IMG/VR virus record: IMGVR_UViG_3300042561_002100
Location: 96,001 to 160,000 of that record
From: a virus
DNA: 64,000 bases
Reading direction: 5' to 3' (one strand)
Made by a program: the position numbers and the translations under genes
In this document: piece after piece, positions 5,855 through 62,109 of the stretch
Position numbering within the stretch: position 1 is the stretch's first letter
Layout: each line of letters begins with the position of its first letter
The notes under the pieces: generated by a model
Seen by the model: the letters and a program-made list of their open reading frames with translations, nothing else
What the model was told of the DNA's origin: nothing
The model's database searches: none

Positions 5855-6274
5855 ATGGATTCTTTGAATAATTCAGATATTATGGATATTTTTGATGATC
5901 CAAACACATCTCAAGAAACACTAAGAAAATTAGCGACTGATGAGAATTGGGAGGTTCGTTTGCGATTAGCAGGACATCCAAACACACCACCAGAAACTTT
6001 AGAACATCTAGCCGTAGATAAGTGTTACACTGTTCGTATGAATGTGGCACATAATCTAAGGACATCAACAAAAACACTAAAATTATTGGCGGAGGATAAA
6101 GATTTTCGTGTTCGTTGGGCAGTAGCACTAAACCGAAACACACCAATAAAAACACTAGAATTATTGGCGATGGATGAGGAGGCTGGTGTTCGTTATCGGG
6201 TAACAAATAACAAAATCTGCCCACATTATATCAAGAAGTTTCTTAAAATTCAAAAGCATCTGGCTAGATTATGA
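5855..6274 (+). CDS. HEAT/LRV-like 26-aa repeat protein, paralog 1 (4 repeats)
   Basis: xPNTPxxxLxxLAxDxxxxVRxxVAx repeats; cap PHYIKKFLKIQKHL. Confidence 0.9.
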   Translation: MDSLNNSDIMDIFDDPNTSQETLRKLATDENWEVRLRLAGHPNTPPETLEHLAVDKCYTVRMNVAHNLRTSTKTLKLLAEDKDFRVRWAVALNRNTPIKTLELLAMDEEAGVRYRVTNNKICPHYIKKFLKIQKHLARL

Positions 6275-6828
6275 GAAAAGTTAAACAAGCTAAAGATCCA
6301 TACACTTCAACCGAAATTCTAGAACAACTAGCGACCGATGAGGATTCTAGTGTTCGTTGGAATGTAGTACGTAATCCAAACACACCACCAGAAGCTCTAG
6401 AACAATTAGCGACTGACAAGAATCCTGGGGTTCGTTGGGAGGTAGCGAGAAATCCAAACACACCACCAGAAGCTCTAGAACAATTAGCGACTGACAAGAA
6501 TCCTGGGGTTCGTTGGGCAGTAGCACTACATCCAAACACCCCACCAACAACATTAGAACTTCTAGCGACCGATGATGATGATTATGTTCGTCAGGGAGTA
6601 GCACTACATCCAAACACCCCACCAAAAGCACTAGAAATTCTAGCGACCGATATGGATTATCGTGTTCGTTGGCGGGTAGCAAGATTACCAAATATACAAC
6701 CAAAATTATTAGAAATCTTAGCTACCGATGAGAATCCATATGTTCGTATATGGCTAGCACAAAATCCAAACACACCACGCTACATCAAAAAGTATCTTAA
6801 AATTCAAGAACAACTTCAAAAATTATGA
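6271..6828 (+). CDS. HEAT/LRV-like repeat protein, paralog 2 (6 repeats)
   Basis: Same repeat and cap; ATGA overlap with paralog 1. Confidence 0.9.
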   Translation: MRKVKQAKDPYTSTEILEQLATDEDSSVRWNVVRNPNTPPEALEQLATDKNPGVRWEVARNPNTPPEALEQLATDKNPGVRWAVALHPNTPPTTLELLATDDDDYVRQGVALHPNTPPKALEILATDMDYRVRWRVARLPNIQPKLLEILATDENPYVRIWLAQNPNTPRYIKKYLKIQEQLQKL

Positions 6829-6964
6829 CGACTTCCTTTGATGATAACGATCCACCACAGCTTAACTTTGATAAATTATACGAACGAATAAAACAACAAA
6901 GAATGGAAGAACTCTTTTCTGAGCCCTATGATGGTGATATGGAAGAAGAGGATTGAATTTATTC

Positions 6965-7037
6965 GCTCGTCTAGCCATCCGGTGAAGGCAACGAACTCAT
7001 AATTCGTAGGAGGTGGGTTCGATCCCCACGACGAGCA
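6965..7037 (+). tRNA. tRNA with CAU anticodon (elongator Met or lysidine-Ile2)
   Basis: Acceptor GCTCGTC/GACGAGC, anticodon stem ACGAA/TTCGT with loop CTCATAA, GTTCGATC T-loop; lacks the initiator GGG:CCC pairs. Confidence 0.9.
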
Positions 7038-7042
7038 TTGTG

Positions 7043-7099
7043 TGACAGTCAATAAACTGTACACAAATATCAACACTCTCAAGTGTTGTATGCTACTAT
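7043..7099 (+). promoter_or_regulatory. Palindromic element (TGACA-N10-TGTAC) plus extended -10 TG-C-TACTAT
   Basis: Right arm at 7058, -10 at 7094. Confidence 0.7.
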
Positions 7100-7156
7100 A
7101 AAAACGGTCAAAAGACCAATTGTTCCTTTATCTATTTTTTCTCATAATCGTTTAAA

Positions 7157-7384
7157 ATGACAAGAAAACCGTTTGATGGCAAGTTCAGTAAGGATATTCA
7201 TATTCTTACTCGTGCAACTAAAGGAGAAGTCTATCTCGGCGACTATCCCAAAATCATCAAAAAACTTAAACGTTATTTTACTGAGCAATATTCTGATATC
7301 CAATTCTATAATGAACCCGAATCCGATAATTTTTATTTATTGGATCTGATTCGGAATGAACTAGAAATTGATGTAGTGGTGTGA
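7157..7384 (+). CDS. Conserved cyanophage hypothetical protein
   Basis: First ORF after the promoter; recognisable small cyanophage ORF. Confidence 0.6.
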   Translation: MTRKPFDGKFSKDIHILTRATKGEVYLGDYPKIIKKLKRYFTEQYSDIQFYNEPESDNFYLLDLIRNELEIDVVV

Positions 7385-7387
7385 ATT

Positions 7388-7819
7388 ATGGATACCAATC
7401 TTTTTTGGAATCTGAGAGGTAATTATTCAGAACGTAAAGAAAAACTTTCTAAGATGTCTCGTGAGTATTTGGAAGCCTCTGTCTTAGATTCATGTTATAA
7501 TAACTTCATCACCAATATAGAGGAAAATAATACTACTGGCGTAAAGAGAATTCCTTATATTGGATGGTATTGGCGCCATGTAACATTTAGCGATTTTACC
7601 AATATCCGTATTGGAGATTGTGGTCAATTTGTTGGATTTATGGAGAGCAATAAGTGGGATCATCCAGAAAGATATCTTACCGAAGATGAGGGGTGTAGTA
7701 TTATTGCATTTATTGATAATGCAATGAGAATTCAAGAGGGAGCTAGTTCCGAGACAACTCTTGATATCGTTCTTCAAAATCTATGGGATTATATGCAAAC
7801 TTTGAAAATTGAAAGATGA
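7388..7819 (+). CDS. Hypothetical protein
   Basis: 143-aa ORF in the operon. Confidence 0.6.
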   Translation: MDTNLFWNLRGNYSERKEKLSKMSREYLEASVLDSCYNNFITNIEENNTTGVKRIPYIGWYWRHVTFSDFTNIRIGDCGQFVGFMESNKWDHPERYLTEDEGCSIIAFIDNAMRIQEGASSETTLDIVLQNLWDYMQTLKIER

Positions 7820-7998
7820 CTAATCTATTTGTAGGTGAATCCGATTTCCGAGAATGGTTGGAAGCTAATAATTTTTGGATTTATTCCTCATATAAAGATG
7901 ATCCATGGAATGAATGTAATTGGTATGCGTGTCGGCGGGTTGCCCCGGAAAGCCGAAGATGTGATTGTAATGATGAAAACCCGGATTACAATTGGTAA
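7816..7998 (+). CDS. Hypothetical protein
   Basis: ATGA-coupled ORF. Confidence 0.45.
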   Translation: MTNLFVGESDFREWLEANNFWIYSSYKDDPWNECNWYACRRVAPESRRCDCNDENPDYNW

Positions 7999-8320
7999 TC
8001 AGGCCATATCATTCCACCTATTTTACTAATTCTAGAACTGCTACATTTGAAATTATCGGGAAAACAAAAGGAATTTGGTATAATCTAACAGCTTATTCTA
8101 TCAATATTGATGATGTTCCTGAAAAAATAGACGAAGTTTCAGAATCACTTGCTCGCGCCTGGGAGGCTCTTGTTCTATGATACCAGAATTAATGATTCTT
8201 GGATTCCTATTGATTATTGCTTCTTTTTCTGGTAACGGAAGTAGTTCAATATCTTTTGAAAATAAAAATAAGCCAAAAGGGCCACCACTAAAATTTAAAA
8301 AAATCACAAAGGAAAAATAA

Positions 8321-8608
8321 ATGAGTAACACATTACATGTCTATGCACAGTCAGCACCACATGACAGTGTTTTTATCTGTGGAACTAAAGAATCACTAGA
8401 AAAACTAAGAGAAACATTAGATAATATTCTTACTGAAGATCTTAAGTTTGGTGCTTATGATGAGTTTACTAATGATGGCGAGGGATATAACGTACATATT
8501 GATTTGTTATCTGAAGAGAAAATGGAGCAGATGGCCGTTCCCTATAGTGATGAGATTTTCTGGAATAATGAATCCAATAAAACAAAAGTGTATCCTTGGT
8601 ATCTTTGA
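8321..8608 (+). CDS. Hypothetical protein
   Basis: 95-aa ORF preceded by a GGA-type RBS. Confidence 0.55.
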   Translation: MSNTLHVYAQSAPHDSVFICGTKESLEKLRETLDNILTEDLKFGAYDEFTNDGEGYNVHIDLLSEEKMEQMAVPYSDEIFWNNESNKTKVYPWYL

Positions 8609-8642
8609 ATAATAATCACCAACAAATAATGAATTTTGTATT

Positions 8643-8900
8643 ATGGATTACGGATTAACGCCATATTGTTTATCAAGAAATCCAAACACACCACCAAAAG
8701 CCCTAGAACAACTAGCGACCGATGAGTGGGGTCCTATTCGTTGTTGGGTAGCACTAAACCCAAACACTCCACCAACAACATTAAAACAACTAGCAACCGA
8801 TGAGGAATGGTATGTTCGTTGGGGTGTAGCACGAAATCCAAATACTCCACGCTATCTCAAGAAGTATCTTAAAATTCAAGAACATTTGGTGAGATTATGA
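8643..8900 (+). CDS. HEAT/LRV-like repeat protein, paralog 3 (2 repeats)
   Basis: Repeat plus cap PRYLKKYLKIQEHL. Confidence 0.85.
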   Translation: MDYGLTPYCLSRNPNTPPKALEQLATDEWGPIRCWVALNPNTPPTTLKQLATDEEWYVRWGVARNPNTPRYLKKYLKIQEHLVRL

Positions 8901-9454
8901 ACAAATTTGAACAAGCTAGAGATCCAAATACACCACAAGAAGAGTTAGAGCGTCTAGCTACTGATGATGAGTATCTGGTTCGTTGTGGTGTAGCACGAAA
9001 TCCATCCACACCAACAAAAGCCCTAGAACAACTAGCGACTGATAAGTGTGGTAATGCTCGTGAAGGAGTAGCAGATAATCCAAACACTCCACCAGAAATC
9101 CTAGAACAATTAGCGACCGATGAGGATTATTGGGTTCGTTGGAGAGTAGCACATAATCCAAACACACCACCAAAAGCCCTAGAACAACTAGCGACCGATG
9201 AGGATTCTAGTGTTCGTTATTGGGTAGCAGAAAATCCAAACACACCACCAAAAGCTCTAGAACAACTAGAGACCGATGAGAATTCTGATGTTCGTTGGAG
9301 TGTAGCAGATAATCCAAACACACCACCAAAAGCTCTAGAACAACTAGCGACCGATGAGAATTCTGATGTTCGTTGGAGTGTAGCAGATAATCCAAACACT
9401 CCACGCTATCTCAAAAAGTATCTTAAAATTCAAGAACATCTAGCTAAATTATGA
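8897..9454 (+). CDS. HEAT/LRV-like repeat protein, paralog 4 (6 repeats)
   Basis: MNKFEQARDPNTP N-cap, repeats, C-cap. Confidence 0.9.
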   Translation: MNKFEQARDPNTPQEELERLATDDEYLVRCGVARNPSTPTKALEQLATDKCGNAREGVADNPNTPPEILEQLATDEDYWVRWRVAHNPNTPPKALEQLATDEDSSVRYWVAENPNTPPKALEQLETDENSDVRWSVADNPNTPPKALEQLATDENSDVRWSVADNPNTPRYLKKYLKIQEHLAKL

Positions 9455-9771
9455 ACGCTATGGAAAAAGAAGAACAACTTCAAAGATTAGAATCTTATTT
9501 TGATCGTATTAAAAACACTCTTGAATTATGTGGCCCAAGTCAGGAGTTTATTGAAGAAGTAAGAGAACTTTTAGGATTTTCTCATGTAATAAGTGGAGTT
9601 GCTTGCTCAGAATGTGATGGATCCGGATATAAAGTCTATGGTTCTACTGCAGGATGGGCCGGAGGCATTGGTGGACAGACAATAACGACGAGTGTATGTG
9701 ATTGTTGCTGGGGAAGTGGAAGAAGTGATAAAAAATTCGGAGATTTAAGAAAACTTAGATCCATGTCTTAA
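9451..9771 (+). CDS. DnaJ-type zinc-finger protein
   Basis: CSECDGSG and CDCCWGSG (CxxCxGxG) motifs. Confidence 0.6.
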   Translation: MNAMEKEEQLQRLESYFDRIKNTLELCGPSQEFIEEVRELLGFSHVISGVACSECDGSGYKVYGSTAGWAGGIGGQTITTSVCDCCWGSGRSDKKFGDLRKLRSMS

Positions 9772-9782
9772 ATAGTTAAAAC

Positions 9783-10022
9783 GTGTATAATGGAAGAATG
9801 GACCGTTCAACTTTTTTACGCTACATAGGTAACATTTTTCTTATCGTTGGTTATTTCATTCTTCTTCATGTTGATATGACGGCTGGCCTTTTGATAAAAT
9901 GCATCGGTGGTTTCTTGACTGTTCCGTTTGCTGTTAAATACAAACTGTGGGATGTTGTCTTTATATGGGGCTTCTTCAGCTTTATTGAAATCGCCAAAAT
10001 TATTGAATTGCTTACTAAATGA
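9783..10022 (+). CDS. Small membrane protein
   Basis: Three hydrophobic segments. Confidence 0.6.
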   Translation: MYNGRMDRSTFLRYIGNIFLIVGYFILLHVDMTAGLLIKCIGGFLTVPFAVKYKLWDVVFIWGFFSFIEIAKIIELLTK

Positions 10023-10025
10023 ACT

Positions 10026-10823
10026 ATGTTAGCTAATAACTCAATAGGAAATCTCGGGAGACTCGGCAATCAAATGTTTCAATATGCTGCTCTTAGAGGA
10101 ATAGCGGTGGAACATAATTATGAGTATTGTCTTCCACCATTGAATTTCATTGCAACTCAAGATCCTAATTGTGCAACTAGCGATTGCACTATTTTTGATT
10201 GTTTTATGTTACCCGAAGCACCAAGACGACTGCTTTCTGGACCGATTCTAGAAGAATCTTCTTTTGAGTTTGACAATAATCTATGGAATTCGTGTCCTGA
10301 TAACGTTTCTCTTTATGGTTATTTTCAAAGCGAAAAATACTTTAACCATATAAAAGAGAACATAAGAAACTCTTTTCGGTTCAAAGAAACTTCTGAAATA
10401 TCTTATGCTTCTAGTTTCTTTAATGAGGAATTCAATAATACCTCAGTGATCTCCTTACACATTAGAAGAGGAGATTATCTTAAATACACTCATCATCCAA
10501 CTCTTCCGATGAGTTATTATGAAGACGCTCTTAGTCAGTTGCCTGATGTTCCAGTTTTTGTTTTTTCGGATGATGTGAATTGGTGTAAACAAGAAGTGTC
10601 ATTTCGTTCGGATAGATTTTATATTTCAGAATCTAACAGTACGGCAGTTGATCTTTATCTTCAATCCAGATGTAGTCATCATATTATTGCAAACAGTTCC
10701 TTTAGTTGGTGGGGAGCGTGGTTAGCTAAAAGTCAAAAAGTTATTGCACCGAAGCAATGGTTCGGACCACCACTAACACATAATACAAAAGATCTTTACT
10801 GTGAGGATTGGATTCAATGCTAA
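10026..10823 (+). CDS. GT11 alpha-1,2-fucosyltransferase
   Basis: GRLGNQMFQYA, GYFQSEKYF, LHIRRGDY, IIANSSFSWWGAWL. Confidence 0.92.
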   Translation: MLANNSIGNLGRLGNQMFQYAALRGIAVEHNYEYCLPPLNFIATQDPNCATSDCTIFDCFMLPEAPRRLLSGPILEESSFEFDNNLWNSCPDNVSLYGYFQSEKYFNHIKENIRNSFRFKETSEISYASSFFNEEFNNTSVISLHIRRGDYLKYTHHPTLPMSYYEDALSQLPDVPVFVFSDDVNWCKQEVSFRSDRFYISESNSTAVDLYLQSRCSHHIIANSSFSWWGAWLAKSQKVIAPKQWFGPPLTHNTKDLYCEDWIQC

Positions 10824-11434
10824 TTTCATTATCTGAAATGATAACAAAATATAATATGAATATTCGGGGTGTTATTCATATTGGCGCTCATTATGGCGAA
10901 GAGGTTCCCGAATACATTAAAAATGGAATTTCTGAACTTCATCTGTTTGAACCTCTGTCGGAAAACTATAAAATTTTAAGGAATAATCTCCAAGACCTAA
11001 AGATTAATTGGGCAACTTATCACTGTGCATTGGGAAATAAAAACGAAAGAGTTACAATGTTTGTTAGTGATAACCAACAACAAAGTAGCTCAATTCTTTC
11101 ACCGAAAGATCATCTAACACATCATCCAAATGTGAGATTTCCTACAACGGAAGAAGTTTTAGTCACTACTTTGGACTCTCAAGAAATTGAAAATTGTAAC
11201 TTCATTAATATGGATGTGCAGGGTTATGAGTTGGAAGTTCTTAAAGGTGCATCTAAAACTTTAGAACATGTTGAATATGTTTATTGTGAAGTCAATAGAG
11301 CCGAAGTTTATGAAAATAATGCTTTCGTAGAAGAGATTGATGAGTTCCTTTCTCAATACAATATGATCAGAGTGGAAACAGATTGGGCAGGAGAAATCTG
11401 GGGTGATGCACTTTATGTGAGAACCGAGAGATGA
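10808..11434 (+). CDS. FkbM-family methyltransferase
   Basis: IHIGAHYGEE, FEP, MDVQGYELEVLKGA. Confidence 0.9.
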   Translation: MDSMLISLSEMITKYNMNIRGVIHIGAHYGEEVPEYIKNGISELHLFEPLSENYKILRNNLQDLKINWATYHCALGNKNERVTMFVSDNQQQSSSILSPKDHLTHHPNVRFPTTEEVLVTTLDSQEIENCNFINMDVQGYELEVLKGASKTLEHVEYVYCEVNRAEVYENNAFVEEIDEFLSQYNMIRVETDWAGEIWGDALYVRTER

Positions 11435-12716: not shown

Positions 12717-12719
12717 ATT

Positions 12720-15538: not shown

Positions 15539-15587
15539 CAATTCGTAAACTGGACCGCTTGACAAACGGTTGTTCCTATGCTACGGT
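15536..15587 (+). promoter_or_regulatory. Palindromic element (TGACA-N10-TGGAC) plus sigma70-type promoter TTGACA-17-TACGGT
   Basis: -35 at 15559-15564, extended -10 at 15582; a late motif CTAAATA follows at 15612-15618. Confidence 0.7.
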
Positions 15588-15644
15588 GTACCCGAACCTC
15601 AAAAGTTCAAACTAAATACTTATTCGTAATGAATGAGTGAAATC

Positions 15645-15720
15645 TAAGAGCCGTGGATGTTGGCCTTCTGGGAAGTTGGCAGTGACACTTCATCTAACAC
15701 GGATGCCGAATTCTATTCAA
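15645..15720 (+). ncRNA. Candidate structured 5' leader of rlpA
   Basis: Nested pairings CCGTG/CACGG, GATG/CATC, GCC/GGC, CTTC/GAAG in a leader of about 130 nt. Confidence 0.45.
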
Positions 15721-15724
15721 ATTA

Positions 15725-18979: not shown

Positions 18980-19192
18980 ATGGCGCTATCAAATTCTGTT
19001 AATGAGAGTCTAGATGAGGCTCAATCACAACTTAAGAATGCATTGGCCTATGCTGCTCGTCAAGAAGCACCTTATGTAATGGTCGGTATCGCTAGAATTA
19101 TCCATGAAATTGATACGATTAAAAAGACAGATTCTGCGCATGAGCAACTTCAAAAATTTATTAATCAAATTAATCCTGACATTCAACTTTGA
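18980..19192 (+). CDS. Conserved cyanophage hypothetical protein
   Basis: MALSNSVNESLDEAQSQLKNALAYAARQE. Confidence 0.65.
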   Translation: MALSNSVNESLDEAQSQLKNALAYAARQEAPYVMVGIARIIHEIDTIKKTDSAHEQLQKFINQINPDIQL

Positions 19193-19614
19193 TTCTTTTT
19201 CTTCTACCTATCCGTATTCGTGAAGAGATGACACTAAATCCAAACACACCAACAAAAGCTCTAGAACAACTAGCGACCGATGAGGATTCTTGGGTTCGTT
19301 GTTGTGTAGCACTAAACCCAAACACACCACCAGAAGCTCTAGGACAATTAGCGACTGATGAAAATCCTAATGTTCGTTATTGGGTAGCAGAAAACCCAAA
19401 CACACCACCAGAAGCTCTAGGACAATTAGCGACTGATAAGAATCCTTATGTTCGTTATTGGGTAGCAGAAAACCCAAACACACCAATAAAAATCCTAGAA
19501 CAACTAGCTACCGATAAGGATTCTCTGGTTCGTCGTGGTGTTGTACAAAATCCAAACGCACCTCACTATCTCAAGAAGTATCTTAAAATTCAAGAACAAC
19601 TGGCGATGTTATGA
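19189..19614 (+). CDS. HEAT/LRV-like repeat protein, paralog 5 (4 repeats; start uncertain, TTG 19189 or ATG 19228)
   Basis: Repeats plus cap PHYLKKYLKIQEQL. Confidence 0.85.
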   Translation: MILFLLPIRIREEMTLNPNTPTKALEQLATDEDSWVRCCVALNPNTPPEALGQLATDENPNVRYWVAENPNTPPEALGQLATDKNPYVRYWVAENPNTPIKILEQLATDKDSLVRRGVVQNPNAPHYLKKYLKIQEQLAML

Positions 19615-20096
19615 ACAAATTTGAACAAGCTGGAGATCCAAACACTCAACCAAAAACCCTAGAACAACTAGCGACTGATGAGGAATATTTGGTTCGTTGT
19701 TGTGTAGCAAATAATCCAAACTCTTCACCCAAAACTCTAGAGCTTCTAGCGACCGATGAGGATTATCGTGTCCGTATTGTTGTAGCAGAAAATCTAAACA
19801 CTCCACTAGAAATCCTAGAACAACTGGCAACCGATGAGAATTCTGGTGTTCGTTATAATATAGCAAATAATCCAAACACACCACCAAAAGCCCTAGAACA
19901 ACTAGCGACCGATAGGTATTATGAGGTTCGTTGGAGGGTAGCATGTAATCAAAACATTCCACCAAAAGCTCTAGAACAACTAGCGACCGATGGGAATTGG
20001 GATGTTCGTTGTGAAGTAGCACTAAACCCAAACACACCACATTACATCAAAAAGTATATTAAAATTAAACAATACCTATCATGTCTACATTTTTAA
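19611..20096 (+). CDS. HEAT/LRV-like repeat protein, paralog 6 (5 repeats)
   Basis: MNKFEQAGDPNT N-cap, cap PHYIKKYIKIKQYL. Confidence 0.9.
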   Translation: MNKFEQAGDPNTQPKTLEQLATDEEYLVRCCVANNPNSSPKTLELLATDEDYRVRIVVAENLNTPLEILEQLATDENSGVRYNIANNPNTPPKALEQLATDRYYEVRWRVACNQNIPPKALEQLATDGNWDVRCEVALNPNTPHYIKKYIKIKQYLSCLHF

Positions 20097-22485: not shown

Positions 22486-23043
22486 ATGAACGAACTTGAC
22501 CAGGCTATAGATCCTAACACACCATCAACAATATTAGAACAACTAGCGACCGATGAGGATTGTGGTGTTCGTTGTTGTGTAGCACAAAATCCAAACACTT
22601 CATCAGAAATTCTAGAACAACTAGCAACTAATGATGAATGGTATGTTCGTTATTATGTATCATATAATCCAAACACATCACCGACAACATTAGAAGTTCT
22701 AGCGACAGATGAGGAATATTGGGTTCGTCGTGATGTAGCGTGTCATTCAAACACACCACCAACAACATTAGAACAACTAGCGACCGATGTGTATTCTAAT
22801 GTTCGTCATGGTGTAGCAGATAATCCAAATACTCCACCAAAAGTCTTAGAAATTCTAGCGACCGATGAGGAATATTGTGTTCGTTGGAGAGTAGCAGATA
22901 ATCCAAACACACCACCAAAAATCTTAGAACAACTAGCGACCGATGATGATTGGGATGTTCGTTGGAGGGTAGCAGGAAATCCAAACACACCACACTATAT
23001 CAAGAAGTATCTTAAAATTCAAGAACATTTGGCTAGATTATGA
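22486..23043 (+). CDS. HEAT/LRV-like repeat protein, paralog 7 (6 repeats)
   Basis: MNELDQAIDPNTP N-cap, cap PHYIKKYLKIQEHL. Confidence 0.9.
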   Translation: MNELDQAIDPNTPSTILEQLATDEDCGVRCCVAQNPNTSSEILEQLATNDEWYVRYYVSYNPNTSPTTLEVLATDEEYWVRRDVACHSNTPPTTLEQLATDVYSNVRHGVADNPNTPPKVLEILATDEEYCVRWRVADNPNTPPKILEQLATDDDWDVRWRVAGNPNTPHYIKKYLKIQEHLARL

Positions 23044-23351: not shown

Positions 23352-23645
23352 ATGATCAAATCGTATCTTGACCAACAACAGAATAATTGGAGAGAATATT
23401 GTAATAATTTTCTTTTAGCCGAAAATCCAAACACTTCACCTGAAATCCTAGAACAACTAGCGTCTGATGAGAGTTTTTATGTTCGTCGCTGTGTAGCGAG
23501 TCATCCAAACACACCACCAAAAGTCCTAGAACAACTAGCGACCGATGAGGAATATTATGTTCGTTGGAGTGTAGCACTAAATCCAAACACACCACGCTAT
23601 CTCAAAAAATATCTTAAAATTCAAGAACATCTAAAAACATTATAA
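23352..23645 (+). CDS. HEAT/LRV-like repeat protein, paralog 8 (2 repeats)
   Basis: Repeats plus cap PRYLKKYLKIQEHL; TATAAT at 23338. Confidence 0.85.
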   Translation: MIKSYLDQQQNNWREYCNNFLLAENPNTSPEILEQLASDESFYVRRCVASHPNTPPKVLEQLATDEEYYVRWSVALNPNTPRYLKKYLKIQEHLKTL

Positions 23646-48484: not shown

Positions 48485-48690
48485 GACCCGAAACTCGTGA
48501 AGCTATGGAGAATCTCTTTGGTGCAAAATGGAATGTACCAAAAGCGGCGGATTATTGTAATCTCACCAACAAAGAGTGTAAAATTGTCTTTAATGAATAT
48601 TGTCGCCTAAATCCTCCAACATATGTTCAAGAAAGTTCTTTTGATCTACTTGTGTTATCTCATTCTGATGATGTGAAAGATGAATCTTGA
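48481..48690 (+). CDS. Conserved cyanophage hypothetical protein
   Basis: MRPETREAMENLFGAKWNVPKAA. Confidence 0.65.
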   Translation: MRPETREAMENLFGAKWNVPKAADYCNLTNKECKIVFNEYCRLNPPTYVQESSFDLLVLSHSDDVKDES

Positions 48691-49381
48691 TAATAAAAGC
48701 GATATCATACATGATGACATTGAAAGTCTTTCATTGGATGATAGAATTAATCTGGCATATAATCCAAACACCCCACCAACAACATTAGATCAACTAGCTA
48801 CTAATGAGCATTATTGGGTTCGTTATTGGGTAGCACAACATCCAAACACACCACCAAAAGCCCTAGAACAACTAGCGACCGATGAGGAATATTATGGTAT
48901 TCGTCGTGAAGTAGCACAAAACCGAAACACACCACCAAAAGTCCTAGAACAACTAGCGACCGATGAGGAATATTATGGTATTCGTCGTGAAGTAGCACAA
49001 AACCGAAACACACCACCAAAAGTCCTAGAACAACTAGCGACCGATGAGGATCTTTATGTTCGTTATTGGGTAGCACAACATCCAAACACACCACCAAAAG
49101 CCCTAGAACAACTAGCGACCGATGAGGATTCTAGTGTTCGTTGTTGGGTAGCAGAAAATCCAAACACTCCACCAAAAGCTCTAGAACAACTAGCGACCGA
49201 TGAGGATTCTGGTGTTCGTTGGAGTGTAGCACATAATCCAAACACACCACCAAAAGCTCTAGAACAACTAGCGACCGATGAGGATTCTAGTGTTCGTTAT
49301 AGGGTAGCACTAAATCCAAACACTCCCCACTACATCAAAAAGTATATTAAAATTCAGGAGCACCTAAAAACATTTGACTAA
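48680..49381 (+). CDS. HEAT/LRV-like repeat protein, paralog 9 (7 repeats, two of 27 aa)
   Basis: Repeats plus cap PHYIKKYIKIQEHL. Confidence 0.9.
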   Translation: MNLDNKSDIIHDDIESLSLDDRINLAYNPNTPPTTLDQLATNEHYWVRYWVAQHPNTPPKALEQLATDEEYYGIRREVAQNRNTPPKVLEQLATDEEYYGIRREVAQNRNTPPKVLEQLATDEDLYVRYWVAQHPNTPPKALEQLATDEDSSVRCWVAENPNTPPKALEQLATDEDSGVRWSVAHNPNTPPKALEQLATDEDSSVRYRVALNPNTPHYIKKYIKIQEHLKTFD

Positions 49382-53939: not shown

Positions 53940-53979
53940 GGCTAAATATTAAAAAGAGTGGAAAAGCGGAAACTCTACA

Positions 53980-55173: not shown

Positions 55174-55207
55174 ATAGAAATTAAAGTTTACAATGGGGAT
55201 AATTTAG

Positions 55208-56632: not shown

Positions 56633-56683
56633 TAACTCTCATAAATAGACATATTAATATGTCTCATAACATTCTAACAGCCG

Positions 56684-58408
56684 ATGCAATATTCTAATAG
56701 AGAACTTTCACAATTTGCCTATTTTTTGAAGGTAAATGATACTAATCAAAAAATTGCAATAACTACAACAGCGACACCTTTTGTTGGAATCGGCTCAACT
56801 AATCCAACAGAAAAATTAGATGTTTATGGTAATATTAAAGCGAGTGGTATTGTTAGTGCTATGGCTTTTTATGGTGATGGTTCAACATTAAATAATGTTA
56901 CTGCTGTGGTGAATGGTTATTTTGTTTCAACTGTTGCTGGAATATGGACTGGATCTAATGTTGGAATCGGAACCAGCACATTTGATCACAAATTAAATGT
57001 TGGTGGAAATGTTTCAGCGAATAGATTTATATCATATGCTCCACAGGGAACTGCACCATTTCAAGTATTCTCTAATACGGTTGTATCTAATCTTAATGCG
57101 ACATTTTTAAACGGTAGATCCGCGCCGAGTGGTAATATAGTTGGTACTGGTGATTCACAGACCTTAACAAATAAGACACTAATAAATCCCATTATATCAG
57201 CAGTTAATAATGGTAATGCAATTTTAACAATTCCCACAACTTCAGGTATTCTTGTTCATACGAATGCTTCCGGTATTTTAACAAGTGGTCTTTATTCTTC
57301 AGGTAGTATTAATAATATTCATATAGCCGTTGGTGCGGGTATTTCTTATAGTAAATTAAACTTAACGAATACTATTAATAATTCTGATATTGCTGTTGGT
57401 GCAGCTATCAGTTATTCAAAACTTAGTCTCAGTAATACAATTCGTTCATCTGATATTGATCCTAATAACAAAATTCAAAACGGAAAATTAGTAAATAGCA
57501 CAATTTCTGGTGTTTCACTTGGAAGTAATCTTAATCCGTTGGAAGCTGGAAATTATCTAAATGGTGATAATTATGATGGTTCTTCCCAAATTACTTTTGA
57601 TGTTGATGCGAGCACTGATAATGTTGGAGGAACACTTGTAGCAAGAGATAGTGAAGGTGATATTACTGGTAATAATTTACACTTAAAAAATATATTTGGA
57701 ACTGGGGATTTACAACTTACTACTGATGGTGAAGACTATAGTTCATATCTTCTTTCTGGCGTACCACCACCAGATTCAATTGGTGCGAAGATTAAATATG
57801 TTGTTGATCAAGAGGGTAGCATTTTTGTTAATGGTGGCCCCGATGGGGTTTGGGTTTTTCATAATGTTGCCAGAACCGCCAATAGAACCATATCATTTGC
57901 TTTGGCCAATGAATCTTTAAGTGGTTATGATACATTTTTTAGAATGTATCGGAATCAATCAAACGGTTCAAAGAATGTTGAATGTCCAACACCGGGAACT
58001 ATTTTTACAGTTAATGGAACCAAAAACTTTAAAATCACACATCCACTAGATGATAAAAAGTTCTTAACGCATGTATCAATTGAAGGACCCAGAGCAGATC
58101 TAATTTATAGAGGGTTAGTGAAATTAAATAATGGTTCGGCTATTATTAATCTTGATAATGAATATAATCTAACACCGGGAACTTTTGATGCTCTATGTAG
58201 GAATCCTCAGGTGTGGATTTCTAATATTGATGGTTGGGCGCAATGTAGAGGAAAAGTTGATAATGGAGTATTGATTATTGAAGCCATGAATAATAAGACA
58301 AATGAGAATGTAAATTGGATGGTTGTTGCAGAAAGACAAGATGTCGCAATGTATAATCCGGGTAGTGACGAGAACGGTAGACCGATTTTGGAGGAAGATA
58401 AATCATAA
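56684..58408 (+). CDS. Tail fibre protein with a C-terminal chaperone-like domain
   Basis: VGIGSTNP repeats, QTLTNKTL, KNFKITHP...LTHVSIEGP; ATAAATA at 56641. Confidence 0.75.
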   Translation: MQYSNRELSQFAYFLKVNDTNQKIAITTTATPFVGIGSTNPTEKLDVYGNIKASGIVSAMAFYGDGSTLNNVTAVVNGYFVSTVAGIWTGSNVGIGTSTFDHKLNVGGNVSANRFISYAPQGTAPFQVFSNTVVSNLNATFLNGRSAPSGNIVGTGDSQTLTNKTLINPIISAVNNGNAILTIPTTSGILVHTNASGILTSGLYSSGSINNIHIAVGAGISYSKLNLTNTINNSDIAVGAAISYSKLSLSNTIRSSDIDPNNKIQNGKLVNSTISGVSLGSNLNPLEAGNYLNGDNYDGSSQITFDVDASTDNVGGTLVARDSEGDITGNNLHLKNIFGTGDLQLTTDGEDYSSYLLSGVPPPDSIGAKIKYVVDQEGSIFVNGGPDGVWVFHNVARTANRTISFALANESLSGYDTFFRMYRNQSNGSKNVECPTPGTIFTVNGTKNFKITHPLDDKKFLTHVSIEGPRADLIYRGLVKLNNGSAIINLDNEYNLTPGTFDALCRNPQVWISNIDGWAQCRGKVDNGVLIIEAMNNKTNENVNWMVVAERQDVAMYNPGSDENGRPILEEDKS

Positions 58409-58442
58409 TACCATATGTACTTCTATTTGTCAAGGTCTTGTA

Positions 58443-58500
58443 TGACGATCAACAAAGTGGCATAATACCCATTGACATTTTAAGGAATCTGCTGTAGGAT
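58443..58500 (+). promoter_or_regulatory. Palindromic element (TGACG-N10-TGGCA) plus TTGACA-17-TAGGAT
   Basis: Right arm at 58458, -35 at 58472, -10 at 58495. Confidence 0.7.
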
Positions 58501-58548
58501 CAGCCTTGTCACCGATGATGAACATCTTGTATTTACTAATTACTACTA

Positions 58549-58755
58549 ATGAATAAGATACTAACAATCACTAATGGTACTGAATCAATTGATATTGAGT
58601 GTACTACTAAAATCAGAACAAGAGTCAGTGAAGAATGTTTTATTGCAATGAAGAATACAACATCTATTGATGTCAATAATATTATTCTACATGTACTTTT
58701 AGATGAAACTCAAATTATTATGGAAGAACGTAACAAATGGACATTATGCAAGTAA
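58549..58755 (+). CDS. Hypothetical protein
   Basis: First ORF after the promoter. Confidence 0.5.
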   Translation: MNKILTITNGTESIDIECTTKIRTRVSEECFIAMKNTTSIDVNNIILHVLLDETQIIMEERNKWTLCK

Positions 58756-58976
58756 TTCAAGATTGGTATAACATTCTTCAAGATATTCGGAGTAATTATC
58801 AGTTCTTTCTTGATATTAATTCTGGATGGTTAGAAATGGAATTCAAACATCTTTATGGTGATAATCCTACAGAAAAAGATTATTGGAATTGGATGTTGCG
58901 TAATGCTGAAACAGTCTATGTGTCTAATGATTTTTATGAACTACTTCTAAATGAGAACAATAATAGCCGGAAGTAG
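58737..58976 (+). CDS. Hypothetical protein
   Basis: 79-aa ORF. Confidence 0.5.
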   Translation: MDIMQVIQDWYNILQDIRSNYQFFLDINSGWLEMEFKHLYGDNPTEKDYWNWMLRNAETVYVSNDFYELLLNENNNSRK

Positions 58977-59304
58977 AACCGCCACTGATATTAAAGATCT
59001 TATTGACGCAGTAGCTAAATGTGGATGGAAAATAACAACAATTGTTTCCGGTAAAGCTAGAGGAGCCGATCATTTGGGTGAATTATGGGCAAATTATCAT
59101 AATATTCCAATAGATGAATATCCTGCTGATTGGAAAAAGTATGGTAGATCTGCCGGACCAAGACGCAATATTGAAATGGCTGAAAATGCGGATGCTCTTA
59201 TTGCTCTTTGGAATGGAGAAAGCAGAGGAACCAAACATATGATAGAAGCAGCAAAGAAAAAGAACCTAAAAGTTTATGTTCATATTATAGAGTGTGTCGG
59301 TTAA
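58951..59304 (+). CDS. SLOG-superfamily protein (DUF2493/YspA-like)
   Basis: IIAGSR, IVSGKARGAD, ADWKKYGRSAGPRRN, LWNGESRGT. Confidence 0.85.
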   Translation: MRTIIAGSRTATDIKDLIDAVAKCGWKITTIVSGKARGADHLGELWANYHNIPIDEYPADWKKYGRSAGPRRNIEMAENADALIALWNGESRGTKHMIEAAKKKNLKVYVHIIECVG

Positions 59305-59350
59305 GAGACTGGCACACTCTTTTTACGTCTAGCTGAGCTTCTGTTATTAT
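59295..59350 (+). promoter_or_regulatory. Palindromic element (TGTCG-N10-TGGCA) plus TG-T-TATTAT
   Basis: Right arm at 59310, -10 at 59345. Confidence 0.6.
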
Positions 59351-59382
59351 TGTTTTGTTAGTCATCCAATGATGTTGGATTT

Positions 59383-59784
59383 ATGAACAAACTTGAACAA
59401 GCTAGAGATCCAAACACACCACCAAAAGCCCTAGAACAACTAGCGACTGATGAGCATTATGGTGTTCGTTGGTTTGTAGCAGAAAATCCAAACACACCAA
59501 TAAAAACTCTAGAACAATTAGCGACCGATAAGGATTCTTCGGTTCGTCGTGGTGTAGCATATAATCCAAACACTCCACCAAAAGCCTTAGAACAACTAGC
59601 GACCGATGAGGATCTTTATGTTCGTTGGTGGGTAGCACTAAATCCAAACACACCACCAACAATATTAGAAATTCTAGCGTCCGATGTTGCTTATTGTATT
59701 CGTGAAGGAGTAGCAGAAAACCCAAACACACCACACTATATCAAAAAGTATCTTAAAATTCAAAAACAACTCCAAAAACTATGA
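59383..59784 (+). CDS. HEAT/LRV-like repeat protein, paralog 10 (4 repeats)
   Basis: MNKLEQARDPNTP N-cap; cap PHYIKKYLKIQKQL. Confidence 0.9.
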   Translation: MNKLEQARDPNTPPKALEQLATDEHYGVRWFVAENPNTPIKTLEQLATDKDSSVRRGVAYNPNTPPKALEQLATDEDLYVRWWVALNPNTPPTILEILASDVAYCIREGVAENPNTPHYIKKYLKIQKQLQKL

Positions 59785-61052
59785 AACTCTTGACCGACTT
59801 TCAACCAAGGCAATCTCAGAAAGAGGTTGTTGATATTATGAGTGAGCATAACAAACTCAGAATTATCGCACCTACTTCTGCAGGCAAGAGCTTTATGATC
59901 TTCTTGGATATCTTCAATAAGATGCAAACACAAGAAGATTCACTTTTTGTTATTGTTTCATCCAGAATTCTTTTACTCCAACAACTTTCTTCTGAGTATT
60001 CTAAACTTATCGGTAATACTCACATTGTTCATATGCATTCTGGAGATAGTAATAATCGTAAGATCACTGATTATCTGGAGTTCGCTTATTGGTGTGAGAA
60101 AGTCAAAGGACCAAAGGTTGTCTTTGTCACTTATCACTCATTGAAGAAGATTGTTAAATCCGAAGTAGAAATTGATGCGATTTATCTTGATGAGTGTCAT
60201 AATGGTGCAAAGAAACACTTTTTTGAATATGTTAAAGGTGCTGAAGTCATCTCCAAATCTCTTTATAGCTTCACTGCAACTCCTCGTTATCATGAGGATC
60301 CCAAAAAGAATGGTAATAACAATGTAGAAGTTTATGGTAGCGAAGTCTATAATATTAACGCGGTAGAACTCATTAAAAATGGTTCAATTCTTCCACCTAA
60401 GATTTCACCACTTCGTATTCCAGATGTACGTGAAAGAAAGAAAGATGTCCATGAAAGAGATTATTATACGTTGATGGATTGTCTTCTCAATGAAGATAAT
60501 ACCGATAGAGTTCTTATTACTTGTCCTTCAACAAGATCTTTGATGGATCTTCTGTGTTTGACTGATTTTGTGCAAGATCTTAACAATAATGGATATGACC
60601 TATTTCATATCACATCAAAGTATGGTGCATTCCATAATAAAACAAAACTTAAGAGAACCGAGTTTCTCAAAAGAATTGAAGATTATGGAAAAGAAGATAA
60701 AAAATTTGTGATTCTTCATTATAGTATTCTAACAGAAGGGTGGAGCAATAATTCCATTCAATCTTCTATTTTTATGCGACCTCAGAGTATGGGTGCAACG
60801 GTACAGAATGTTGGTCGTACTTTACGATTGGGTCATACAGATATTGAGAGAATCAATAATGGTGAATTGATTCCTGGAGATTATGACAATTATGAGAAAC
60901 CATATGGTAATGTTATTGTTCCTGTTTATGAGAACACTGGTTCAAATATTCAAGAACAAGTAGAGTATGTTATTGATGAAGTGTTTGAGCGAGGTAATTA
61001 TGTGTTTGATGTTATTACATCACCAAAAGAAAAAGAGAAAGAGGTGGCATGA
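59781..61052 (+). CDS. SF2 (DExH-box) helicase
   Basis: APTSAGKS, LDECH, TATP, ILTEGW, QNVGRTLR. Confidence 0.85.
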   Translation: MKLLTDFQPRQSQKEVVDIMSEHNKLRIIAPTSAGKSFMIFLDIFNKMQTQEDSLFVIVSSRILLLQQLSSEYSKLIGNTHIVHMHSGDSNNRKITDYLEFAYWCEKVKGPKVVFVTYHSLKKIVKSEVEIDAIYLDECHNGAKKHFFEYVKGAEVISKSLYSFTATPRYHEDPKKNGNNNVEVYGSEVYNINAVELIKNGSILPPKISPLRIPDVRERKKDVHERDYYTLMDCLLNEDNTDRVLITCPSTRSLMDLLCLTDFVQDLNNNGYDLFHITSKYGAFHNKTKLKRTEFLKRIEDYGKEDKKFVILHYSILTEGWSNNSIQSSIFMRPQSMGATVQNVGRTLRLGHTDIERINNGELIPGDYDNYEKPYGNVIVPVYENTGSNIQEQVEYVIDEVFERGNYVFDVITSPKEKEKEVA

Positions 61053-61708
61053 TGGTAGAATCTAGAAATGTTTATGATCGTTGTGATCTAGCAAATAATC
61101 CAAACACACCAACAGAAATCCTAGAACAACTAGCGACCGATGAGAAATGGTATGTTCGTTGTCGAGTAGCAGAAAACCCAAACACACCACCAAAAGTTCT
61201 AGAACTACTAGCGACCGATGAGGATTCTAGTGTTCGTTATTGTGTAGCAATACATCCAAACACACCACCAAAAGTTCTAGAACTACTAGCGACCGATGAG
61301 GATTCTAGTGTTCGTTATTGTGTAGCAATACATCCAAACACACCACCAAAAGCCCTAGAACTACTAGCGACCGATAATGCGCCTTCTGTTCGTTATAATG
61401 TAGCAGAAAATCCAAACACTCCACCAAAAGTCCTAGTACAATTTACGACCGATGCGCATTGGAATGTTCGTTGTGGAGTAGCAGAAAATCCAAACACACC
61501 ACCAAAAGCACTAGAATTACTAGCTACCAATGGGAGTTCTAATGTTCGTTGGATAGTAGCACAAAATCCAAATACACCAATAAAAACGCTAGAAGTTCTA
61601 GCATCCGATAAGGATTATTATGTTCGTTATTGGGTATCAACTAACCCAAACACTCCACACTACATCAAAAAGTATATTAAAATTCAAGACCACCTAAAAA
61701 CATTATGA
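61049..61708 (+). CDS. HEAT/LRV-like repeat protein, paralog 11 (7 repeats)
   Basis: Repeats plus cap PHYIKKYIKIQDHL. Confidence 0.9.
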   Translation: MMVESRNVYDRCDLANNPNTPTEILEQLATDEKWYVRCRVAENPNTPPKVLELLATDEDSSVRYCVAIHPNTPPKVLELLATDEDSSVRYCVAIHPNTPPKALELLATDNAPSVRYNVAENPNTPPKVLVQFTTDAHWNVRCGVAENPNTPPKALELLATNGSSNVRWIVAQNPNTPIKTLEVLASDKDYYVRYWVSTNPNTPHYIKKYIKIQDHLKTL

Positions 61709-62109
61709 ACAAACTTGAACAAGCTAGAGATCCTAACACTCCACCAGAGATCCTAGAACAACTAGCTACCGATGAAGATTCTTGTGTTCGTTCTAGGGTA
61801 GCAAGACATCCTAACACTCTACCAACAACATTAGAACTTTTAGCTACTGATAATGATTATTGGGTTCTTTGGGATGTAACAGAACATCCAAACACACCAC
61901 CAAAAGTTCTAGAACAACTAGCGACCGATTATCGATATTGGGTTCGTTGGAACGTAGCAGAAAATCCAAACACTCCACCAAAAGTTCTAGAACAACTGGC
62001 AACTGATGAGAGTTATAGAGTTCGTTATTACGTGGCAGGAAATCCAAACACACCCCGCTACATCAAAAAGTATCTTAAAATTCAAGAGCAGCTTAGGTCA
62101 CTTCCATAA
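61705..62109 (+). CDS. HEAT/LRV-like repeat protein, paralog 12 (4 repeats)
   Basis: MNKLEQARDPNTP N-cap; cap PRYIKKYLKIQEQL. Confidence 0.9.
   Translation: MNKLEQARDPNTPPEILEQLATDEDSCVRSRVARHPNTLPTTLELLATDNDYWVLWDVTEHPNTPPKVLEQLATDYRYWVRWNVAENPNTPPKVLEQLATDESYRVRYYVAGNPNTPRYIKKYLKIQEQLRSLP

What the first reader, a model, noticed from the sequence alone, without database searches (positions are those of the whole stretch)
5855..62109. Dispersed 12-member family of 26-aa HEAT/LRV-like repeat genes (57 repeats, about 9% of the window)
Seen in sequence: genes at 5855, 6271, 8643, 8897, 19189, 19611, 22486, 23352, 48680, 59383, 61049 and 61705 share the repeat NPNTPPKALEQLATDExxxVRxxVAx. They carry 4, 6, 2, 6, 4, 5, 6, 2, 7, 4, 7 and 4 copies (about 5.7 kb in total). 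They lie among early, metabolic and structural-adjacent loci, all on the + strand. Established: T4-like phages are compact and rarely carry large paralog families; short HEAT-like alpha-solenoids are protein-binding scaffolds. Inference: this is a phage-encoded repertoire of modular binders, possibly for host takeover or for blocking multiple defence proteins. It is the best candidate here for an undescribed system.
Basis: partly seen in the sequence, partly recalled or inferred. Interest (0 to 1): 0.92.

Follow-up and report, generated by a model that had tools for sequence, protein, structure and literature searches.

The report
Hypervariable repeat-protein gene family in phage
A large uncultured lake phage related to T4-like cyanophages spends about 9% of this stretch on a fast-evolving family of small helical-repeat proteins with a fixed scaffold and a variable surface, which looks like a natural library of binding proteins whose targets are still unknown.

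Summary
Twelve + strand genes carry 57 copies of a 26-residue repeat (5,727 bp, 8.9% of the window). All match Pfam LRV (PF01816) strongly.

The family is larger than reported. The 179.5-kb viral record holds 24 such genes. A near-identical relative shows the full genome is about 240 kb, with roughly 35-40 of them.

AlphaFold gives a confident capped alpha-solenoid (pLDDT 97), closest to 1LRV and to artificial alphaRep binders.

Framework codons are homogenised down to synonymous sites. Six positions per repeat (17, 18, 19, 22, 23, 26) are hypervariable, with dN/dS about 2.4 against 0.44 for the framework.

Against a relative whose other proteins are 96% identical, syntenic family genes are only 50-87% identical. 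They also differ by whole repeats and whole genes. A more distant relative has its own homogenised framework and caps, which indicates concerted evolution.

No reverse transcriptase was found in the held record, so diversity comes from ordinary mutation and recombination.

The closest cultured phage (Synechococcus phage B23) has none. Unrelated uncultured phages have comparable expansions, one reaching 14% of its genome.

Binding function and any anti-defence role remain inference; nothing here tests them. The host is unproven and the habitat is lake water.

The scan has noted similar LRV families on other phage DNA. I found no paper describing them.

The parts
5855..6274 (+). LRV gene, 139 aa, 4 repeats (one degenerate) plus C-cap; first of a stop/start-overlapping pair (ATGA)
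6271..6828 (+). LRV gene, 185 aa, N-cap MRKVKQAK, 6 repeats plus C-cap; repeats 2 and 3 are a recent duplicate, identical over most of the 78-nt unit and differing at the 3' end, around the codons for positions 23 and 26
8643..8900 (+). LRV gene, 85 aa, 2 repeats plus C-cap; first of a pair
8897..9454 (+). LRV gene, 185 aa, N-cap MNKFEQAR, 6 repeats plus C-cap; modelled by AlphaFold2 (pLDDT 97.3)
19189..19614 (+). LRV gene, about 141 aa (TTG start uncertain), 4 repeats plus C-cap; first of a pair
19611..20096 (+). LRV gene, 161 aa, N-cap MNKFEQAG, 5 repeats plus C-cap; shares a 108-bp exact tract with a paralog about 65 kb away
22486..23043 (+). LRV gene, 185 aa, N-cap MNELDQAI, 6 repeats plus C-cap; ATTATGAAC at both ends
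23352..23645 (+). LRV gene, 97 aa, 2 repeats plus C-cap; directly upstream of thyX
48680..49381 (+). LRV gene, 233 aa, 7 repeats (two 27-aa units from a recent 81-bp duplication) plus C-cap; directly upstream of the 1,478-aa tail fibre gene; replaced by three genes with 11 repeats in relative G001
59383..59784 (+). LRV gene, 133 aa, N-cap MNKLEQAR, 4 repeats plus C-cap; its stop overlaps the start of the helicase gene
61049..61708 (+). LRV gene, 219 aa, 7 repeats plus C-cap; its start overlaps the helicase stop; first of a pair; 5 repeats in G001
61705..62109 (+). LRV gene, 134 aa, N-cap MNKLEQAR, 4 repeats plus C-cap; 87% identical to its G001 counterpart, with the last repeat and cap swapped

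Best explanation
This is a lineage-specific, rapidly diversifying multigene family of small, capped LRV-type alpha-solenoid proteins. Each gene encodes a short N-cap, 2-7 copies of a 26-residue two-helix repeat, and a 15-residue C-cap helix.

Shown here:
- The scaffold residues and even their synonymous codons are kept uniform across paralogs.
- Six positions per repeat (17, 18, 19, 22, 23, 26), which lie before and along the second helix, are hypervariable and rich in Tyr, Trp, Cys, Arg, Ser and Gly.
- The repertoire changes by point substitution, by repeat duplication or loss, and by in-register gain or loss of whole genes. One case looks like a swap of a repeat plus cap between paralogs.
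- No reverse transcriptase gene was found in the held record.

Inferred:
- That the hypervariable positions line one face of the second helix (from their i, i+3/4, i+7 spacing).
- That gene-level gain and loss uses the shared cap/start junction TTATGAAC.
- That the proteins are soluble intracellular binders, made together with early or middle and tail-adjacent genes.
- That their variable face recognises variable proteins of the host or of rival phages, most plausibly components of host defence or takeover targets.
- That the arms race with these targets drives the diversification.
For: Family and fold: Pfam LRV E 1e-15 to 1e-56. The AF2 model has pLDDT 97.3 with alternating 7- and 9-residue helices and a cap helix. 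The top PDB fold match is 1LRV (E 1e-6), and alphaRep binders align at TM 0.68-0.75.

Hypervariability: positional entropy is 2.5-3.5 bits at positions 17-19, 22, 23 and 26, against 0.4 bits or less at nine core framework positions and under 1.7 bits at the rest. There are 88 distinct six-residue combinations in 94 repeats.

Homogenised framework: the same amino acid uses different fixed codons at different positions, for example V20 GTT 86/88 against V24 GTA 84/90, and A13 GCG 67/89 against A25 GCA 80/84.

Selection: Nei-Gojobori dN/dS is 2.4 at hypervariable codons and 0.44 at framework codons.

Turnover: in relative G001, other proteins have a median 95.9% identity (n=56), while syntenic LRV genes are 50-87% identical. 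Residues differ at 62% of variable positions against 15% of framework positions (Fisher p 3e-31). There are also whole-repeat and whole-gene differences.

Concerted evolution: G002 has its own uniform framework codons and caps.

Other points: no RT was found. Overlapping stops and starts link members to each other and to a helicase gene. Net charge ranges from -15 to +8, which fits diverse targets.
Against: No binding partner, no expression data and no phenotype exist; the function is inferred from architecture and evolutionary pattern only. dN/dS between paralogous repeats is distorted by gene conversion and saturation. 'Syntenic' genes may not be true orthologues. Repeat numbers come from short-read metagenome assemblies, and Logan contigs break at these loci, so some copy-number differences could be assembly error. 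Members near tail fibre genes leave a virion-linked role open. The residues at variable positions are mostly one mutational step from TAT or TGT, so part of their composition may reflect mutation history and not selection for binding.
Confidence: 0.5

Rival explanations
1. The proteins are virion-associated. They could be accessory parts of the tail fibre or baseplate apparatus, or proteins packed into the head and injected. Their variable face would then serve host recognition or act at the first moment of infection.
For: Four of the 12 genes sit beside tail genes: 48680 lies directly upstream of the 1,478-aa tail fibre gene, and 59383, 61049 and 61705 lie just downstream of the tail fibre-like gene at 56684-58408. 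The only other genes that diverge as fast between G000 and G001 include two genes of the tail-fibre region, 63-71% identical. An earlier scan note on another T4-like phage (e1-5352739) proposed head packaging for LRV genes.
Against: Most members lie in regions of small accessory genes, tRNAs and metabolic genes, far from structural genes. There is no shared N-terminal leader of the T4 capsid-targeting type; the N-termini of solo or first-of-pair genes are unrelated to each other. There are no signal peptides or fibre-like domains. Some 35-40 interchangeable small proteins are hard to place in a virion.
Confidence: 0.15
2. The family is a selfish or near-neutral expansion. The 78-bp unit and the cap junction recombine easily in a recombination-proficient T4-like phage, so copies spread and are homogenised with little or no benefit to the phage.
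For: Framework DNA is homogenised and paralogs share exact tracts of up to 108 bp. In-register gain and loss occurs at the TTATGAAC junctions. Copy number differs between close relatives.
Against: All 24 genes in the record keep open frames, with no stops inside any repeat match. Variation is position-specific and non-synonymous, while the framework is under purifying selection at dN/dS 0.44. Unrelated phage lineages keep 10-14% of their genomes in such genes. Phage genomes are under strong size constraint.
Confidence: 0.12
3. The family is diversified by a dedicated mutagenic machine, such as a diversity-generating retroelement, and not by ordinary mutation and recombination.
For: Variation is sharply confined to a few codons, mostly at first and second codon positions. 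This superficially resembles DGR variable regions.
Against: No reverse transcriptase (PF00078) was found in the 179.5-kb record. Variation is spread over about 100 repeats in 24 genes, not one variable region paired with a template repeat. Mosaic swaps and repeat indels point to homologous recombination. The record is about 83% complete, and relative G001, which fills the missing part, was not searched for RT.
Confidence: 0.03
4. The proteins act in phage-phage competition or as mimics of host LRV-containing sensors, for example as decoys for NLR-like STAND proteins that use LRV repeats as their sensor arm. In this reading they are not direct inhibitors of defence enzymes.
For: Among hits that carry an organism name, the closest long cellular LRV proteins come mostly from filamentous cyanobacteria. 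One metagenomic protein (P0233) carries precomputed Pfam hits to NACHT and LRV. Lake samples hold several related phage variants.
Against: This rests on a single fusion protein of unknown origin. There is no sequence match to any PADLOC defence protein beyond a spurious one. No test of mimicry was possible.
Confidence: 0.1

Closest known systems
Leucine-rich repeat variant (LRV) protein of Azotobacter vinelandii (PDB 1LRV; Pfam PF01816)
   Same: The repeat motif is the same (P-x-x-L-x-x-L-x-x-D-x-D-x-x-VR-x-x-VA). Pfam matches are far above threshold, the phmmer E-value to 1lrv_A is 3e-9, and it is the top fold match.
   Different: The repeat here is 26 residues, not 24 (two extra loop residues). 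The proteins are 85-233 aa with no extra domain of their own (by my recollection, 1LRV carries an N-terminal Fe-S cluster domain). They have dedicated N- and C-caps, occur in 24 or more copies per genome, and are encoded by a phage. The function of 1LRV itself is unknown.
alphaRep artificial binders and their natural Mth187-type HEAT-like repeat parents (PDB 3LTJ, 3LTM, 4JW2; PMC3754942)
   Same: Both are rigid two-helix repeat solenoids with caps, TM 0.68-0.75. In alphaRep the randomised positions are 18, 19, 22, 23, 26 and 30, around a V-R dipeptide, and they form the target-binding concave face (PMC3754942). The natural hypervariable positions here are 17, 18, 19, 22, 23 and 26, around V20-R21.
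   Different: alphaRep repeats are 31 residues and man-made, and there is no sequence match at E 0.01 or better. That the two registers are equivalent is my inference from the shared DxxVRxxAA-type motif, not a residue-level superposition.
Poxvirus ankyrin-repeat/PRANC multigene families and giant-virus repeat-protein expansions (from established knowledge)
   Same: These are virus-encoded multigene families of helical-repeat binders with a variable repeat part and a constant C-terminal module. They are linked to host range and show lineage-specific expansion and loss.
   Different: They belong to eukaryotic viruses, use a different repeat fold, and the constant module is an F-box-like adaptor with a known partner. 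Here the constant C-cap has no known partner and may only cap the solenoid.
Diversity-generating retroelement targets of phages (for example Bordetella phage BPP-1 Mtd; from established knowledge)
   Same: Both are phage-encoded proteins with variation focused on a few surface codons of a stable scaffold.
   Different: No reverse transcriptase was found here. The scaffold is not a C-type lectin fold. Diversity is stored in many germline paralogs and reshuffled by recombination.

Membership tests
Pfam LRV (PF01816) repeat family | HMM match above the curated gathering score | tested here: met
   57-185 bits against a cut-off of 21.6 for the four members tested. The whole record has 75 repeat matches.
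Pfam LRV (PF01816) repeat family | Tandem 24-26-residue units folding into alternating short helices in a solenoid like 1LRV | tested here: met
   The AF2 model has pLDDT 97.3 with 7- and 9-residue helices alternating. Foldseek's top hit is 1lrv at E 1e-6.
Azotobacter LRV protein architecture (1LRV) | N-terminal Fe-S cluster domain fused to the repeats | tested here: not met
   The proteins are 85-233 aa and consist only of caps and repeats. That 1LRV has such a domain is from memory, not from a tool result.
PBS-lyase HEAT-like repeat proteins (CpcE/F, NblB; PF03130) | Match to the HEAT_PBS profile | tested here: not met
   PF03130 is not among the Pfam hits at E 0.1 or better; only LRV, LRV_2, HEAT, HEAT_2 and HEAT_EZ appear.
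Diversity-generating retroelement system | Reverse transcriptase gene and a template repeat | tested here: not met
   There is no PF00078 match in the 179.5-kb record. The record is about 83% complete, and G001 was not searched for RT.
MoxR AAA+/VWA systems with LRV arrays (earlier scan notes e1-4099747, e1-5466934) | A MoxR-type AAA_3 ATPase in the same genome | tested here: not met
   There is no PF07726 match in the record.
T4-type internal head proteins | A shared N-terminal capsid-targeting leader | tested here: not met
   N-termini of solo and first-of-pair genes are unrelated. The shared MNK(F/L)EQA start of second genes runs straight into the first repeat as an N-cap helix.
Known anti-phage defence proteins (PADLOC-DB) | Profile match | tested here: not met
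   Of five members scanned, the only hit is one marginal match with no significant stretch.
Kyanoviridae-like T4-type cyanophage (genome context) | T4-type core genes whose best matches are in cyanophages | tested here: met
   gp32, gp59, gp53 and a gp5-like hub are present. The tail protein is 54% identical to Synechococcus phage B23. All 419 records that match the helicase are cyanophages or marine viruses. The host itself is not testable with these tools.

The most novel reading that the evidence does not exclude
Large uncultured phages carry a germline 'binder library'. This would be dozens of capped LRV solenoid genes whose variable faces are continually reshuffled by the phage's own recombination system. 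The homogenised framework would serve as the recombination substrate. The lineage-specific constant caps would couple whatever is bound to a common phage or host partner. It would be an anticipatory counter-defence or host-takeover repertoire, analogous in logic to antigen-receptor or antigenic-variation cassettes, evolved independently in several phage lineages.
Probability: 0.25. Interest if true: 0.9.

Novelty: new variant of a known kind. Interest (0 to 1): 0.78.

Why it matters
If these proteins are binders, this is a very large natural repertoire of recognition modules for a bacteriophage. It takes about 9% of this genome stretch and up to 14% of another phage's genome. It evolves as fast as tail fibre genes, yet it is absent from cultured cyanophages and from every paper I could search. 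It would point to an unstudied layer of the phage-host arms race in lakes and, through the Prevotella-linked contigs, possibly in guts. It would also supply ready-made, very stable scaffold sequences with naturally validated variable positions for binder engineering. The family makes a concrete question testable: what do phages need dozens of different binding surfaces for?

Tried and rejected
- The sigma-70 promoter and terminator scan over 5000-24000 found no more sites than shuffled sequence, so it says nothing about timing.
- Expression: no RNA holder was listed among the public runs.
- Laying lake-metagenome contigs on 43001-63000 showed exact cover of the unique genes. Contigs broke at the LRV genes, with piled-up cross-mapping from paralogs. 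The variants listed there cannot be assigned to a locus, so no population inference was drawn.
- Complex prediction: I tested the last repeat plus C-cap of first-of-pair genes against the N-cap plus two repeats of second-of-pair genes. The verdict was 'weak support', score 0.53 with best control 0.01. That mark was reached by 58 of 80 solved complexes and 2 of 110 mismatched pairs. At 0.60 or under it was reached by only 7 of those 80 and by both mismatches that passed. The runs agree in 100% of contacts and the partner pLDDT is 86. I do not use this result, because both pieces were cut at repeat boundaries and may simply re-stack as one solenoid.
- One search of four further viral records was wasted by an over-strict E-value. 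Only its first-look candidate counts (6 to 229) were seen.
- A DNA-mimic idea was dropped because net charge ranges from -15 to +8.
- A PBS-lyase role was dropped for lack of a HEAT_PBS match.
- The megablast search of 20 kb of the window against GenBank phages found nothing.
- Literature searches for LRV or PF01816 with phage terms returned only plant LRR or NOD2 papers.


Full report
**1. Observation**

The twelve genes are present at the stated coordinates, all on the + strand. A profile built from 70 canonical repeats finds 4, 6, 2, 6, 4, 5, 6, 2, 7, 4, 7 and 4 full repeats, 57 in total. The genes add up to 5,727 bp, or 8.9% of the window. Tandem Repeats Finder reports 78-bp arrays at these loci, though it lists no separate array for the degenerate gene at 5855.

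Every gene ends with the same cap, NPNTPxY(I/L)KKY(L/I)KIQxxLxxL. Seven genes begin with a shared N-cap, M(N/R)(K/E)x(E/K/D)QAxDP(N/Y)T. These are the second genes of the four pairs plus 22486 and 59383, and related forms occur outside the window.

Four pairs overlap stop and start in ATGA. So do the junctions between the gene at 59383, the helicase gene at 59781-61052, and the gene at 61049.

**2. Extent and genome**

The window is bases 96001-160000 of a 179,526-bp IMG/VR record. The record holds 24 family genes and about 101 repeats. Four of them lie on the minus strand at 48.8-50.8 kb.

A second record, G001 (125 kb), is collinear with the end and the start of this record and adds about 60 kb between them. 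The real genome is therefore about 240 kb. G001 has about 25 family genes, roughly 14 of them in the part this record lacks. The full genome type should therefore carry roughly 35-40.

The window holds T4-type genes:
- RNA ligase and NAMPT
- thyX, phoH, gp59, a DNA methylase, gp32 and gp53
- a gp5-like hub, tail and tail fibre genes, and a helicase
- a block of eight glycosyl- and methyltransferase genes

The best matches of a tail protein are Synechococcus phages B23 and B3 at 54% identity; B23 is classified in Kyanoviridae. All 419 records that match the helicase are cyanophages or marine viruses, the best being S-SRM01 at 40%.

No psbA was found, but B23 has none either. Public runs that hold the DNA are lake-water metagenomes. 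So this is a T4-like phage of the cyanophage gene pool from lakes, and its host is unproven.

**3. What the proteins are**

The four members scanned (6271, 8643, 48680, 61049) match Pfam LRV (PF01816) at E 1e-15 to 1e-56. Weaker overlapping matches go to LRV_2 and HEAT models, and none goes to HEAT_PBS.

AlphaFold2 models the 185-aa member at 8897 with pLDDT 97.3. The model shows an N-cap helix, six units of a 7-residue and a 9-residue helix, and a 15-residue C-cap helix.

The best solved-structure match is 1LRV (E 1e-6, 29% identity). PP2A A-subunit HEAT repeats and artificial alphaRep binders follow, the latter at TM 0.68-0.75. By sequence only 1LRV is found, and the alignment shows that the repeat here has two extra loop residues.

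**4. Pattern of variation**

Across 94 canonical repeats, scaffold positions are 81-99% conserved: P2, N3, T4, P5, L9, E10, L12, A13, T14, D15, V20, R21, V24 and A25. Positions 17, 18, 19, 22, 23 and 26 have 2.5-3.5 bits of entropy and are rich in Y, W, C, R, S and G.

Positions 18-26 lie in the second helix. The spacing 19, 22/23, 26 places them along one face of that helix, with V20, V24 and A25 on the other side. This placement is inferred from the spacing, not measured on the model.

There are 88 different six-residue combinations among the 94 repeats.

The scaffold DNA is uniform even at silent sites, and this is not codon bias. The same amino acid uses different fixed codons at different repeat positions:

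| Residue pair | First position | Second position |
|---|---|---|
| Val | V20 GTT 86/88 | V24 GTA 84/90 |
| Ala | A13 GCG 67/89 | A25 GCA 80/84 |
| Asn | N1 AAT 56/68 | N3 AAC 80/89 |

Nei-Gojobori estimates over all repeat pairs:

| Codon class | dN | dS | dN/dS |
|---|---|---|---|
| Hypervariable | 0.99 | 0.41 | 2.4 |
| Framework | 0.12 | 0.28 | 0.44 |

One recent duplication in gene 6271 gives a small-scale example. Its two units are identical over most of their 78 nt and differ only at the 3' end, around the codons for positions 23 and 26.

**5. Turnover between relatives**

In G001, 56 reciprocal-best non-family proteins have a median 95.9% identity (interquartile range 92-98%). The few fast ones include two genes of the tail-fibre region at 63-71%.

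Family genes at the same loci are only 50-87% identical. Within aligned repeats, 62% of residues differ at variable positions against 15% at scaffold positions (Fisher p 3e-31).

Four kinds of structural change are seen:
- Loss or gain of two repeats in gene 61049.
- One gene with 7 repeats at 48680 against three genes with 11 repeats in G001.
- Presence or absence of a whole 558-bp gene just outside the window.
- An apparent swap of the last repeat plus cap in gene 61705, to a cap variant that other G001 paralogs also carry.

Paralogs 65 kb apart share exact tracts of up to 108 bp, against a median of 27 bp. Genes begin and end in the same TTATGAAC-type junction, which I infer allows in-register gain and loss.

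**6. Concerted evolution and wider distribution**

G002, whose tail protein is 83% identical, has 23 family genes in 100 kb. Its repeat framework is uniform but different, including silent changes:

| Position | This phage | G002 |
|---|---|---|
| L9 | CTA | TTA |
| L12 | CTA | CTG |
| A13 | GCG | GCT |
| V24 | GTA | GTT |

G002 also has its own caps, MSNY(D/E)LA... at the start and ...NPNTPQYIxTYLKIKxFLNYYE at the end. Other viral contigs carry further cap types.

G003-G005 lack a match to this phage's tail protein, and G007 shares their cap type. Each of these records carries 61-82 Pfam repeat hits or more. G007 (177 kb, rated complete) has 27 such genes with at least 179 repeats, which is 14% of its genome. 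The same cap type occurs on a contig binned as Prevotella.

About 50 IMG/VR contigs hold relatives. The nearest ESM Atlas clusters are 93-100% viral.

By contrast, 50,697 GenBank phage records give one hit, a Moorella phage, and B23 gives none.

Long LRV proteins of 600-1,900 aa that carry organism names come mostly from filamentous cyanobacteria. One metagenomic protein carries precomputed Pfam hits to both NACHT and LRV.

**7. Mechanism**

Shown here:
- A capped solenoid scaffold with hypervariable positions along its second helix.
- Purifying selection on the scaffold and an excess of amino-acid change at the variable positions.
- Diversification by substitution, unit duplication or loss, and gene gain or loss, with one apparent paralog-to-paralog swap.
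- No reverse transcriptase and no MoxR-type ATPase in the held record.

Inferred:
- That the variable face binds proteins. This rests on analogy with alphaRep, whose randomised positions 18, 19, 22, 23, 26 and 30 form the binding face (PMC3754942).
- That the targets are variable host or rival-phage proteins.

The wide range of net charge, -15 to +8, fits many different targets. Whether the constant caps only seal the solenoid or also dock to a partner is open.

**8. Caveats**

- All genomes are short-read metagenome assemblies, and public contigs break at these loci. The collinearity of two separate records argues against gross error. The short exact tracts between paralogs (108 bp at most, against what I assume to be ~150-bp reads) point the same way. 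Repeat counts in perfect internal duplications may still be too low.
- dN/dS among recombining paralogs is only indicative.
- No expression evidence exists.

**9. Novelty**

The fold family is known. The phenomenon I could not find in any paper: dozens of hypervariable, concertedly evolving LRV genes per phage genome, recurring in several uncultured phage lineages. The scan itself has noted similar families on other phage DNA.

I rate it a new variant of a known kind, namely virus-encoded repeat-protein multigene families and focused-diversity binders. Interest is high because of the scale of the family and because its purpose can now be tested.

Noticed in passing
window 10026-15538: Eight contiguous + strand genes encode glycosyltransferases (GT11, GT25 x2, GT2 x4) and an FkbM-type methyltransferase. 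This is a sizeable sugar-modification block, flanked by LRV genes.
   Followed up: partly
window 5191-5277 and 6965-7037: tRNA-Leu(TAA) and tRNA-Met(CAT) lie among the first LRV genes.
   Followed up: no
window 5880-6224(-), 6264-6539(-), 6347-6703(-), 8958-9404(-): Long antisense ORFs (60-118 aa) run through the LRV arrays. They are most likely by-products of a repeat unit that lacks stops in those frames, not genes.
   Followed up: no
window 55208-58408: Two genes of the tail-fibre region (474 and 574 aa) are only 71% and 63% identical to their G001 counterparts, against a proteome median of 96%. They are likely host-range determinants evolving at a rate like that of the LRV genes.
   Followed up: partly
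G000 172133-172585 (outside the window); G001 39712, 47368, 58683, 83882; P0002, P0003, P0017: This is a sub-family with its own N-terminal domain (MQISLEELKEIFDK...) and a different conserved tail (...QxxALKxLIxxSQDxxLKxL) around 3-5 LRV repeats. Between G000 and G001 the ends are almost unchanged while the repeat surface positions differ.
   Followed up: partly
whole record G000 versus G001 (L020-L026): IMG/VR labels the record 'provirus'. It is in fact a linear fragment of a roughly 240-kb T4-like phage genome, and G001 bridges its two ends with about 60 kb of extra sequence.
   Followed up: yes
L005 10016-12235: A related viral contig carries a 739-aa member with 17 repeats. This shows that array length in the family can go far beyond the 2-7 repeats seen here.
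   Followed up: no
L027, L028 (contig CAKQCV010000001.1, 196 kb, labelled uncultured Prevotella MAG) and G003-G005, G007: A second, unrelated LRV gene family has caps ending ...EALKERKEKSKxxIER and fills tandem arrays of 200-600-aa genes. In G007 it takes 14% of a 177-kb genome. The 'Prevotella' contig may itself be a phage.
   Followed up: partly
P0233 (metagenomic protein, 1,106 aa): Precomputed Pfam hits on this protein include Trypsin_2, NACHT and LRV. This suggests that LRV repeats can serve as the sensor arm of a STAND or NLR-like protein.
   Followed up: no
window 21089-21652: A DUF6433 protein (E 3.5e-32) lies between LRV loci; its function is unknown.
   Followed up: no
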